Part shown: positions 15,001-18,000 of the stretch, one piece after another
How positions within the stretch are numbered: position 1 is the first letter of the stretch
Layout of the letters: each line of letters starts with the position of its first letter
Assembly (NCBI GenBank): GCA_050575255.1
Contig: JBNZDD010013687.1
Location: forward strand, 5,933,012 to 5,997,011
Length of the DNA: 64,000 bases
Source of the DNA: Harriotta raleighana
Lineage: Eukaryota
Reading direction: 5' to 3'
Made by a program: the position numbers

Positions 15001-18000
15001 ATTTTGTACAATGTGGTGGCTATATTTGGGGGTGAACTTGGCAGTCAAATATCTCATGCACAGCCATGAAGAAAATTTTACATGGAGGATTGTTGTCTAA
15101 GACAATAGGAGAAACTCCAAGCTCTTCCAAATAGTGCCATGGGATCTTCAACATCCACCTGTCTAGGCAGACAGGTATATCTCATATGAAGGACTGCATT
15201 TCCCTCAGTGCAGCATTAAGAGTGTTAGCCTTGACTGTTAGCTCAAATTCCCAATGTGAGGCTTAACCACACAACCTTCCAACTCAGAGGCAAGAGTGCT
15301 ACTCACTGAGGCAGGCTGACACCTAAACTACATTGATGCCTTGGCATAAGAACGTGGGTTTATTAACACCTTTCCTTGCACTTTACCTCCAGTTTATCAA
15401 AACTAAGCACACACTTACCTGCTTGGTATGATTGTTCAGAAAGAAGTCCTAAACGCAGGCCGAAGGCAAGGAGGATAACGGTAGCAACAGTTAATAGCAA
15501 TAAAAACTGCAGTTCAGCAATCGTTGCAAGAAGGAAAATAAAATGGCAAACAGAGCACAATTATACAGGCAAGGCATCATCAAAAAGAAATGCAATTGGA
15601 CATGCAGGAGTAACTAGCTAGAATGTCATCTGCAAACATTAACCTATTCACCAGCTCAGTGACTCAGAAGCTAAGGTGTGGCAGAGATTGCTTAACTGTT
15701 GGGAGTGCTTTGGTCGAATGTGGCATTTCTCTCTTGAGTTGCAGAAAGTTTACTTTAGAATCCATTTATTTTTGTATTTTGGTGAGCAATTTAAAGATCT
15801 TATTTTTTCATGGTTACATAAAACCAAAATGCTTCCAATTGCAACCTGATGTATAATTTTAAAGGCGTTAGTATATTGGGTGTAAAGGATGCAGTAGTCA
15901 CGAAAATCCTGCTTGTTGAAGCTTTGGTTTTTGGTCACTTGGAGATATGTCTACTCCTTTTAACCTGACTGAGGATCCAGACAAACTGGTCAATCACTAC
16001 ACTTGCTTTGGAATAGTGATTACTCAGTACTGAAACTCAAATCAATGCTGCCCTGAGTCTTGCTAGAATCTGTAAGCAATTTGTGTGGGTGAAGGGGTTA
16101 AATAATTTAGATATCTGGACTATTGAGCTGTGCCCACTTTACAATAAATGATGCAACAGGCAAAGACATGCAAATCATCAGTTTTAACATAAAAAAAAGC
16201 CATTTCACAATTTCTGCAGCATTGATGCATTGTGTGATATATGTTTTTAAAACAGGCAATTAAAGCAAAATCGGATGGTTTGGTTTCACAATCCAAAGCG
16301 AAAGAAAATAGCGCAAACACAGGTCTAAAACAAATGAATTAAGTGAGAGCACGGACTGCTGACTTTACCCTTAGCTTTGTGTTCTCCAAACGTTGCTCAG
16401 CATTAGCATTATCATTACATTGTGCTGTTGTGATATATAGCAAACTGAAAATGTACTGGAAAATAGCCATATATACATATACACACGATAAACACAACCG
16501 TCACTGATGAACTATTGTGCTTAATGGAAACTCACTCTGCACCTCTCACTCAGATATTCAATATGTGCGGAGAAGCATCATAAAGGGGAATTCCACACAA
16601 ATCACACCAGGGGAAACATAAAATGTATTGGACGCAAAAGTTGCATATAAAATATCAACCCAGCTCCTTCTTCTAGATCCTGATCGAGTTACCCATTCTC
16701 TCACATTATTCTCCAATTTCTGTTACCTGTTGCCTTTGGTAAGCAGAGAATGTCTTCTCAATCTCTTCCAAGTCAAGCACTTTGAAGACCTTGGTGTCGT
16801 CAATTTCTAACCAGACCGTCTCCTCTAGTTTGTTCTGAAAAGTGAGAAGAGGTTCACTATCATGCTGTGCAAAGCACACATTAAACAAATGCATAGTTTT
16901 CTCACTGCACTTTGCTGTACATCCTATGAGTTATACAGTAAAAGGATTAGACAAAGTTAGAATGAATAGGCCGTTCACCCTTTGCTGGGGAGTCTGTATA
17001 AAATACAAGTATATGACCAGTATAAAATAATCTGTGTAAATCTACGTAAATGTCATAAAATATCCCTCCAACATGAAAAGTGCTACAGCTAATGTAAGGA
17101 TTGTTACATTATATTAACATTTACATTAGCTGTTGAAACTGAGCAGATGAACTGAATACAGCTTCTTATCGTGCAACTGATTCCAAATCTGCTGGAGCAG
17201 CCAGAATCCCTCCACTGCGTGCTTGATGATCTAATATTGGGAAAGTGGACAATAAGTTACTGGAATAGAAGCTGTTGACTGTAATTCAGTCCCTTTTCTT
17301 ACTTCAACTTTGCTAAAGGTACTGAATTACAAAGAAATTTTGTATTACAAAGGGACTGTATTAGTCAACAGTGATCAAATACAATAGCAACAACTTGGAT
17401 TTGTATAGCACCCTCCATGCCGGATGGTGTCCCAGAGCAAACAGCTGACACCAGCTCTGAAAAGAGTATAGACGCAACTGTTATCTAGTCACTGTAATCC
17501 CCCAAAATTATAATTGGGTTATTCAATCCACAACTGTTTGCGGGACATTGCTGTGTGCAATCGGCTGCTGCATTTTGCTCGCAAAATACAGTTGATGCAC
17601 TTTACAGTATATTCTGAGAAGCTCTTTGAGGCGTCTCCACATTGTAATAAGTCGCTATGTCGAATGCAAGGATTCTTATTCTTATTGATTGCTCCCAGTG
17701 ATGTGGGTAATCATGTTATCACTAACCTCAGGTAACTTGGCCCAGTTGAAGGATTTGACAGGATTTGCTGGTTGTGGGATATTTTTCCTCTTCTGTCCCG
17801 AGCCCATGGGGCCTCCTGGAGGTGGGGGCATCCCCCCGAGGGGGGGTGGGCCGGGAGGGGGTGGGGGGCCGCCGGGCGGGGGAGGAGGTGGGGGGATGCA
17901 GCACATCGGAGGAGGAGGGGTTGGAGGGATCCCTACTAAGAGAGATGGGGACGGTGGAATGGGACCACCAGGGGCTCCTGGGAGGAGAGGAGGGCCTCCT

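What the first reader, a model, noticed from the sequence alone, without database searches (positions are those of the whole stretch)
15419..15448. 30-nt neural-type DAAM1 microexon in the FH2 linker
Seen: a 30-nt phase-0 exon, DFFLNNHTKQ, with a strong CAG|gtaagt donor lies between the exons ending YQRQQ and starting KETEA; the ORF track cannot show it. Known (recalled): mammalian DAAM1 has a neuron-specific 10-aa insert, DFFVNSNSKQ, at this position, in the linker that tunes FH2 dimer actin assembly. Inference: the length and the DFF..N...KQ pattern are kept in this apparent cartilaginous fish, so the switch predates the split with bony vertebrates. The exon itself is known; this window provides an outgroup copy with its regulatory context.
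Basis: partly seen in the sequence, partly recalled or inferred. Interest (0 to 1): 0.65.

Follow-up and report, generated by a model that had tools for sequence, protein, structure and literature searches.

The report
Known neural DAAM1 microexon, chimaera-like copy
The 30-base exon is real and is this cartilaginous fish's copy of the well-studied DAAM1 microexon that lengthens the FH2 linker in neurons, but its conservation from sharks to humans is already published, so the finding is correct and ordinary.

Summary
On the minus strand, 15448..15419 is a 30-nt, phase-0/phase-0 exon (DFFLNNHTKQ). It has a tttag| acceptor and a CAG|gtaagt donor and lies between exons ending ...YQRQQ (16727) and starting KETEA... 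(13097).

It is not a chance open frame. Its peptide is the best of 77,347 stop-free 10-mers in six frames against the inserts of shark, sawfish, bird and deer DAAM1, scoring 48 against 28 for the runner-up with the shark insert.

The gene is a DAAM1 orthologue. Its 23 phase-consistent exons are 96.3% identical to Callorhinchus milii daam1b and about 84% to bird and mammal DAAM1.

The exon falls inside the FH2 domain, exactly where both human DAAM1 FH2 crystal constructs carry 10 extra residues.

The upstream 100 nt hold 8 UGC, reached by 0.16% of intronic windows. The donor is the only perfect consensus match among the 23. Both features fit SRRM3/4-type microexons.

Polinski et al. 2025 (PMC12056172) already report this microexon as conserved from sharks (calMil1) to humans, neural-specific and SRRM3/4-dependent.

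Tissue specificity in this species could not be tested. Novelty: already known.

The parts
15419..15448 (-). DAAM1 microexon (Daam1-MIC orthologue), 30 nt, phase 0 to 0, encodes DFFLNNHTKQ
   Evidence: Searches show sequence, frame and phase. ranks the peptide first of 77,347 10-mers against four DAAM1 inserts, with 8/10 identity to DFFLSNHSKQ of four sharks and 6/10 to the deer DFFVNSNSKQ.
15413..15418 (-). 5' splice site gtaagt; with the exon's last three bases it reads CAG|gtaagt
   Evidence: 9/9 match to MAG|GTRAGT, the only perfect match among the 23 donors of the gene in the window (the others score 4-8 as printed; four exon ends were corrected afterwards and not re-scored).
15449..15548 (-). 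3' splice site region. It holds the AG, a pyrimidine-rich tract (ccgttatcctccttgccttc), and a UGC-dense tract with TGC at -9, -20, -38, -51, -63, -71, -80 and -100. This is a candidate SRRM3/4-responsive intronic enhancer.
   Evidence: There are 8 TGC in 100 nt, against an intronic mean of 1.82. Only 0.16% of 46,564 intronic 100-nt windows reach 8, and the other 22 exons have at most 5. In -40..-1 there are 3 TGC, against 0-2 at the other 21 acceptors. The function of the tract is inferred, not tested.
15490..15494 (-). Candidate branch point ttaAc (A at 15491, position -43). The nearest upstream AG is at 15507-15508, giving an AG-free zone of 58 nt.
   Evidence: a simple yUnAy motif scan. This is a motif match only. 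The AG-free zone is the 5th longest of 22 acceptors, so it is long but not exceptional.
16727..16834 (-). Upstream constitutive exon (C1), NKLEETVW...FSAYQRQQ, 36 codons
   Evidence: human DAAM1 FH2 chains 2z6e_A 28-63, E 4.7e-15, and 2j1d_G 26-61. One search places it at FH2 profile positions 24-56.
12991..13097 (-). Downstream constitutive exon (C2), KETEANEDT...NILLS(R), 107 nt
   Evidence: 2j1d_G 72-106, E 1.2e-10. One search places it at FH2 profile positions 62-91. It has 35/35 identities to Callorhinchus.
299..52019 (-). DAAM1 orthologue: 23 coding exons from the ATG (52019) to an FH2 exon ending at 299. The gene's 3' end lies outside the window.
   Evidence: tblastn with shark and Callorhinchus DAAM1; splice sites and phases; 2,853 coding nt; Drf_GBD, FH3 and FH2 on single exons; per-exon identities.

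Best explanation
This is the orthologue, in a holocephalan-like cartilaginous fish, of the known neural DAAM1 microexon (Daam1-MIC, VastDB HsaEX0018410). The proposed mechanism has two steps.

Splicing step: in most tissues the 30-nt exon is skipped because it is too short for ordinary exon definition. In neurons, SRRM3/SRRM4 act through UGC motifs just upstream of its 3' splice site. Helped by a perfect U1-complementary donor, they recruit the early spliceosome so that the exon is included.

Protein step: inclusion adds 10 residues to the flexible linker near the N-terminus of the FH2 domain. In the human protein this lowers actin polymerisation and bundling and gives longer fibres.

Shown here: the exon, its frame and splice sites, its homology, its position in FH2, and the UGC-rich, strong-donor architecture.
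Taken from the literature: neural specificity, SRRM3/4 dependence (human, mouse, zebrafish) and the biochemical effect.
Inferred: that the same regulation and effect hold in this species.
For: The sequence, phase and splice sites are.

Peptide homology is far beyond chance: rank 1 of 77,347 10-mers against four references.

Of the 18 named proteins fetched, out of 120 listed, 7 carry a 10-aa insert at exactly this junction:
- Scyliorhinus canicula X1, S. torazame X1, Carcharodon X3 and Heptranchias X1: DFFLSNHSKQ
- Pristis X1: DFYLSNHSKQ
- Indicator (bird): DFFVNGNSRQ
- Odocoileus (deer): DFFVNSNSKQ

Both Scyliorhinus species also have an isoform X2 whose junction lacks the insert and which is 10 residues shorter. 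So both forms are annotated in sharks.

Both human DAAM1 FH2 crystal chains have exactly 10 residues between the matches to the two flanking exons. Pfam FH2 profile positions 24-56 and 62-91 flank the site.

Cis features: a 9/9 donor, unique among 23; 8 UGC in the upstream 100 nt (0.16% of intronic windows reach this); and 3 UGC between the candidate branch point at -43 and the AG. These match the architecture described for SRRM3/4 microexons: a strong 5'ss, branch point and pyrimidine tract far from the AG, and a UGC between branch point and AG in 74-79% of such exons (preprint 10.1101/2024.09.17.613571, passages read).

Polinski et al. 2025 (PMC12056172; sections 6 and 7 plus passages) report conservation from sharks to humans, neural-restricted inclusion, SRRM3/4 dependence, and a higher polymerisation rate for the isoform lacking the microexon.
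Against: No expression data exist for this species, so alternative and neural use are not shown here.

The Callorhinchus models fetched show no insert. P0004 and P0005 (2 of 3) skip it, and P0003 carries a non-homologous, intron-derived stretch. The closest relative therefore has no annotated inclusion isoform among what I saw.

A UGC near the AG does not discriminate in this gene: 11 of the other 21 acceptors have at least one TGC within 40 nt.

The AG-free zone (58 nt) is only the 5th longest of 22. Exact UC-repeat motifs (CTCTC, TCTCT), the first half of the published bipartite enhancer, are absent from the proximal 200 nt. Only a CU-rich tract is present.

No true DAAM2 sequence was obtained for comparison.
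Confidence: 0.9

Rival explanations
1. The exon is genuine and orthologous, but in this lineage it is constitutive, or regulated differently (for example not neural, or not SRRM3/4-dependent).
For: It has the strongest donor of the gene (9/9) and a good pyrimidine tract (78% Y in -25..-3). These could allow inclusion without a tissue-specific activator. No expression data are available. The exact UC-repeat half of the published enhancer is missing.
Against: A strong 5'ss is itself a described feature of SRRM3/4-dependent microexons. Both Scyliorhinus species have annotated isoforms with and without the insert. The Callorhinchus models fetched skip the exon. Polinski et al. report neural restriction across vertebrates in VastDB.
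Confidence: 0.07
2. It is a chance AG...GT open frame in an intron, not an exon.
For: The interval between the flanking exons holds 94 such stop-free AG|..|GT segments of 9-51 nt, 6 of them 30 nt long. tblastn with full-length shark DAAM1 did not report the exon because it is too short.
Against: The peptide ranks 1st of 77,347 10-mers against four independent orthologous inserts, with wide margins. Position, length and phase are all correct. The donor is perfect and the upstream tract is UGC-rich.
Confidence: 0.01
3. The gene is a DAAM paralogue (DAAM2 or a lineage-specific duplicate) rather than DAAM1, so the exon would be a paralogous insert.
For: No bona fide DAAM2 sequence could be retrieved for a direct test. 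Several bird hits are labelled 'DAAM2 protein, partial'.
Against: Exon-by-exon identity is 96.3% to C. milii daam1b, 89-90% to RefSeq-named shark DAAM1 and about 84% to bird and deer DAAM1 over 941 residues. The one 'DAAM2'-labelled bird hit examined (P0035) has 975 identities to Cuculus DAAM1 isoform X2, the differences being almost all gaps, so that label is a misnomer. PDB matches are to DAAM1 only. The insert itself is the DAAM1 one.
Confidence: 0.02

Closest known systems
Daam1-MIC, the neural microexon of vertebrate DAAM1 (VastDB HsaEX0018410; Polinski et al., Nat Commun 2025, PMC12056172)
   Same: It sits at the same junction (C1 ...YQRQQ | C2 KE...). It has the same length (10 aa; the paper gives 9-10), the same phase and the same location in the FH2 linker. 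The peptide is related: 8/10 to sharks and 6/10 to deer. It has a UGC-rich 3' splice site region and a strong donor.
   Different: Two residues differ from the elasmobranch consensus (S5N, S8T). Position 5 (N) agrees with birds and mammals instead. Neural specificity, SRRM3/4 dependence and the biochemical effect were not tested for this copy. The species is not C. milii, the cartilaginous fish used in the paper; the ATG exon is 59/61 identical to it.
SRRM3/4 (eMIC)-dependent neuronal microexon programme
   Same: The exon is short (30 nt) and frame-preserving, and it is inserted within a structured domain. It has a strong 5'ss, a candidate branch point far from the AG (-43) and UGC motifs between branch point and AG. 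These are the features described in passages of 10.1101/2024.09.17.613571.
   Different: At 30 nt it is slightly longer than the <=27-nt definition quoted in one listed abstract (PMC8378409, search listing only). The exact UCUCUC-type half of the bipartite enhancer was not found. No binding or response data exist.
Other formin microexons (FMNL1-A, FMNL2-A) named in Polinski et al. 2025
   Same: They are frame-preserving, neural-regulated microexons in formin genes, in or next to a structured domain.
   Different: According to the paper they lie next to the GBD (FMNL1) or next to the FH2 domain (FMNL2), not inside the FH2 linker, and they are less conserved. They are not present in this window.

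Membership tests
DAAM1 orthologue | Colinear formin architecture GBD-FH3-coiled coil-FH1-FH2 with high identity to named DAAM1 | tested here: met
   One search gives colinear tblastn matches to shark and Callorhinchus DAAM1. One search finds Drf_GBD (E 4.7e-27), FH3 (weak) and FH2 on single exons. One search gives 906/941 identities to C. milii, 839-849/941 to sharks and 788-790/941 to bird and deer.
DAAM1 orthologue | Closer to DAAM1 than to DAAM2 in a direct comparison or tree | not tested
   No genuine DAAM2 sequence was retrieved. Only the best 120 of 578 hits are listed, and these are DAAM1-like. The one 'DAAM2'-labelled bird hit checked is in fact DAAM1. Unnamed hits were not fetched.
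Daam1-MIC microexon | Lies between the exon ending ...YQRQQ and the exon starting KE... | tested here: met
   The insert sits at the same junction in 7 of the 18 fetched DAAM1 proteins.
Daam1-MIC microexon | Length of 9-10 codons, frame-preserving | tested here: met
   30 nt, phase 0 to 0. The paper states 9-10 aa.
Daam1-MIC microexon | Peptide homologous to known inserts | tested here: met
   top of 77,347 10-mers against four references. D1, F2 and Q10 are invariant in the window plus the 7 inserts.
Daam1-MIC microexon | Located in the FH2 linker | tested here: met
   The flanking exons map to FH2 profile positions 24-56 and 62-91. They map to residues 10 apart in chains 2j1d_G and 2z6e_A. 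The label 'linker' for this stretch comes from the paper, not from a structure analysed here.
Daam1-MIC microexon | Inclusion restricted to neural tissue | not testable with these tools
   No RNA data are available for this species. Annotated isoform pairs with and without the insert in two Scyliorhinus species show alternative use in sharks but say nothing about tissue.
SRRM3/4-dependent microexon | UGC motif between branch point and AG, strong 5'ss, distal branch point | tested here: met
   TGC at -9, -20 and -38; candidate branch point at -43; donor 9/9; 8 TGC per 100 nt (0.16% tail). Presence of one UGC alone is not discriminating, since 11 of the 21 other acceptors have one within 40 nt.
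SRRM3/4-dependent microexon | Inclusion responds to SRRM3/4 | not testable with these tools
   This needs a minigene or a knock-down. It has been shown for human, mouse and zebrafish orthologues in the paper.

The most novel reading that the evidence does not exclude
In this holocephalan lineage the exon may have escaped the neural switch. It has the only perfect U1-complementary donor of the gene and a good pyrimidine tract, and it lacks an exact UC-repeat enhancer half. It could therefore be included broadly or constitutively, giving the fish a permanently long FH2 linker. That would be a natural experiment on what the switch is for.
Probability: 0.07. Interest if true: 0.35.

Novelty: already known. 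Interest (0 to 1): 0.12.

Why it matters
The DAAM1 microexon matters in its own right. It tunes actin assembly in neurons, and deleting it in mice impairs memory (Polinski et al. 2025, abstract seen). This window adds only one more cartilaginous-fish copy to a conservation pattern already published with the elephant shark genome.

Its modest extra value has two parts. First, it is a second holocephalan-like sequence showing which residues may vary: positions 5 and 8 differ from sharks. Second, it gives a view of the upstream UGC-dense tract and perfect donor. Once other chondrichthyan genomes are aligned, these could be compared to define the ancestral regulatory module.

Tried and rejected
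I used the 61-aa ATG exon instead.

2. tblastn with full-length shark DAAM1 did not report the 10-aa exon. It was replaced by an exhaustive 10-mer scan.

Whether an inclusion isoform is annotated for Callorhinchus or other chimaeras stayed unchecked.

4. DAAM2 comparison failed. The 120 hits listed are all DAAM1-like, and a literature look for DAAM1/DAAM2 identity found nothing usable.

5. RBFOX-type TGCATG occurs once at +359 and once at -158 of the microexon. Single sites on both sides are no evidence either way.

6. Exact UC repeats near the 3'ss were not found. The AG-free zone is not exceptional (5th of 22).

7. The first version of the exon table had four boundaries off by a few bases (the starts of exons 5, 11 and 13 and the end of exon 10). 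They were corrected. The TGC and donor figures for the microexon are unaffected.

All searches were exon by exon, so no structure prediction of the linker with and without the insert was made.

9. DNA-level comparison of the intronic flanks with other vertebrates was impossible.

10. Supplements of the papers were closed. The alignment in Fig. 1f of Polinski et al. and its source data, which would show the calMil1 peptide, could not be seen.

Full report
**Observation.** The exon reads, on the minus strand...ccgttatcctccttgccttcggcctgcgtttag|GACTTCTTTCTGAACAATCATACCAAGCAG|gtaagtgt at 15448..15419, encoding DFFLNNHTKQ. The exon upstream is 16834..16727 (NKLEETVWLEIDDTKVFKVLDLEEIEKTFSAYQRQQ|gtaaca). 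The exon downstream is 13097..12991 (cgcag|[35 protein letters not shown]..|gtaaat). The window holds three N runs, which were left alone.

**Is it more than chance?** An open AG...GT segment is not. The 3,629 nt between the two flanking exons hold 94 stop-free AG|..|GT segments of 9-51 nt, six of them 30 nt long. The peptide is. I took the inserts from fetched, named DAAM1 proteins and scored every stop-free 10-mer of the six frames of the window (77,347) against each. The candidate is first every time:

| Reference insert | Candidate score | Runner-up score |
|---|---|---|
| Scyliorhinus canicula | 48 | 28 |
| Pristis | 45 | 25 |
| Bird (Indicator) | 34 | 26 |
| Deer (Odocoileus) | 38 | 28 |

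All scores are BLOSUM62. tblastn with the full-length shark protein did not report the exon because it is too short.

**The gene.**
- The ATG-exon translation (61 aa) found 578 proteins with E <= 0.001 among 580 candidates; 120 were listed.
- The best hits are Callorhinchus milii 'daam1b' (97%, 59/61), then sharks and rays named DAAM1 (89-93%), then bird and mammal DAAM1 (85-89%).
- No hit was 100% identical. The window therefore comes from a cartilaginous fish closest to, but not the same as, C. milii. It is not human.
- tblastn with a shark and a Callorhinchus protein gave a colinear set of exons. After reading the boundaries (four corrected) there are 23 coding exons with consistent phases, 2,853 coding nt, from the ATG at 52019 to an FH2 exon ending at 299.
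- Compared exon by exon, the in-frame translations have 906/941 identities to Callorhinchus (96.3%), 839/941 and 849/941 to two sharks, 790/941 to a bird and 788/941 to a deer DAAM1.
- Pfam finds Drf_GBD, FH3 (weak) and FH2 on individual exons.
- Some bird hits are labelled 'DAAM2 protein, partial'. The one I checked (P0035) has 975 identities to Cuculus DAAM1 isoform X2, the differences being almost all gaps, so that label is a misnomer.
- A real DAAM2 could not be obtained for a direct test, so that comparison stays open.

**Position in the protein.**
- The upstream exon matches human DAAM1 FH2 crystal chains 2z6e_A 28-63 and 2j1d_G 26-61.
- The downstream exon matches 2z6e_A 74-108 and 2j1d_G 72-106.
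- Both crystallised constructs therefore carry exactly 10 residues between the two matches, at the place where the window has the microexon.
- In the Pfam FH2 profile the flanking exons cover positions 24-56 and 62-91, so the site is a short variable stretch near the N-terminus of FH2.
- Polinski et al. call this stretch the disordered linker.

**Relatives.** I fetched 18 named proteins of the 120 listed and examined the junction in each.
- Seven carry a 10-aa insert after ...YQRQQ. Four sharks have DFFLSNHSKQ (S. canicula X1, S. torazame X1, Carcharodon, Heptranchias), Pristis has DFYLSNHSKQ, a bird has DFFVNGNSRQ and a deer has DFFVNSNSKQ.
- Ten have no insert: S. canicula X2, S. torazame X2, Narcine X2, Rhinoraja X2, Cuculus X2, Moschus X2, Manis X2, a 968-aa mouse form, and two Callorhinchus models.
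- One Callorhinchus model (P0003) carries 25 non-homologous residues that correspond to the intron just upstream of the KETEA exon.
- In both Scyliorhinus species the junction of X1 carries the 10-residue insert, that of X2 does not, and the total lengths differ by 10.
- The window's peptide shares 8/10 residues with the shark consensus and 6/10 with the deer. D1, F2 and Q10 are invariant across all eight sequences.
- Position 5 is N as in amniotes, where elasmobranchs have S. Position 8 is T, where all the others have S.
The pattern as written, 'DFF..N...KQ', has one dot too many.

**Regulatory context.**
- The donor CAG|gtaagt matches MAG|GTRAGT at 9 of 9 positions, the only such donor among the 23.
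- The 100 nt upstream of the acceptor hold 8 TGC, at -9, -20, -38, -51, -63, -71, -80 and -100. The mean of 46,564 intronic 100-nt windows of the same gene and strand is 1.82, and 0.16% of them reach 8. The other 22 exons have at most 5.
- In the last 60 nt there are 4 TGC, reached by 2.7% of windows.
- The nearest yUnAy match is ttaAc with its A at -43, and the nearest upstream AG leaves a 58-nt AG-free zone.
- This fits what the literature describes for SRRM3/4-dependent microexons: a strong 5'ss, branch point and pyrimidine tract far from the AG, and a UGC between branch point and AG in 74-79% of them (passages of 10.1101/2024.09.17.613571).

Against over-reading these features:
- 11 of the other 21 acceptors also have a TGC within 40 nt.
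- The AG-free zone is only the 5th longest of 22.
- Exact UC repeats are absent.
- TGCATG occurs once on each side, at -158 and +359.
- No other vertebrate genomic DNA was available, so conservation of these elements could not be tested.

**What is known.** Polinski et al., Nat Commun 2025 (PMC12056172; I read sections 6 and 7 and passages of the methods and discussion) report the following:
- It is neural-restricted in VastDB species.
- It depends on SRRM3/4 in human, mouse and zebrafish.
- The isoform without the exon polymerises and bundles actin more strongly.
- The abstract reports memory and synaptic defects in deletion mice.

I could not see Fig. 1f or the supplements, so I do not know the calMil1 peptide printed there.

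**Mechanism, with status of each step.**
- Exon, frame, splice sites, homology and FH2 position: shown here.
- UGC-dense tract and perfect donor as the basis of SRRM3/4-type activation: motif-level evidence here, mechanism taken from the literature.
- Neural restriction and a weaker, qualitatively different actin assembly by the long-linker form: literature for other species, inferred for this one.

**What was left out.**
Everything was done exon by exon, so no structure of the linker with or without the insert was predicted.
- Unnamed protein hits that might be human were not fetched.
- The closed collections and the paper supplements stayed unchecked.

**Verdict.** This is a real, correctly read, orthologous copy of a known neural microexon. 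Novelty: already known. Interest is low.

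Noticed in passing
window 23583-23585 (minus strand), intron to 22305: The intron after coding exon 4 has a non-canonical GC donor (ATGAG|gcaatc), with the acceptor ttccacag|G at 22304. No GT alternative gives the conserved ...TQPMR|FVTRF junction. A bird gene model (P0035) has an 18-residue spurious insertion at exactly this junction, which suggests that predictors stumble there in other vertebrates too.
   Followed up: partly
window 60951-61022 (-), 38198-38269 (-), 9930-10001 (+), 32841-32912 (-), 54723-54780 (+): Five tRNA-like matches in Rfam, two of which ARAGORN also calls (tRNA-Val-TAC and tRNA-Ala-TGC). 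Four lie within the gene's introns and one upstream of the ATG. They are most likely heads of tRNA-derived SINEs rather than functional tRNA genes.
   Followed up: no
window about 63430-63800, 59330-59580, 45240-45520 (minus-strand frames): Similar long open frames rich in G/R/E (for example ...LKRKVLR.ALKEEREEARRR..GMEF...) recur at three places. This points to an interspersed repeat family. A second recurring frame (...QQPIAHRNVPQT...) appears at about 61180, 55690, 17650 and 10150.
   Followed up: no
Callorhinchus proteins P0003 and P0004 against window 13098-13180 and 18310-18334: UniProt models of C. milii daam1b read into introns. P0003 translates sequence just upstream of the KETEA exon, and P0004 reads past the donor of the coiled-coil exon (IVCIQGIDGS; the window has TVCIHRVDG in the same frame). 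These look like annotation artefacts. None of the three C. milii models fetched includes the microexon.
   Followed up: partly
window 15090 (+359 from the microexon donor) and 15606 (-158 from its acceptor), minus strand: There is a single TGCATG (RBFOX-type) motif on each side of the microexon. This is too little to interpret.
   Followed up: no
window 48394-48403, 53636, 63632-63712: Runs of N (10, 1 and 81 bases): one in the first intron and two upstream of the ATG. They were left as they are.
   Followed up: no
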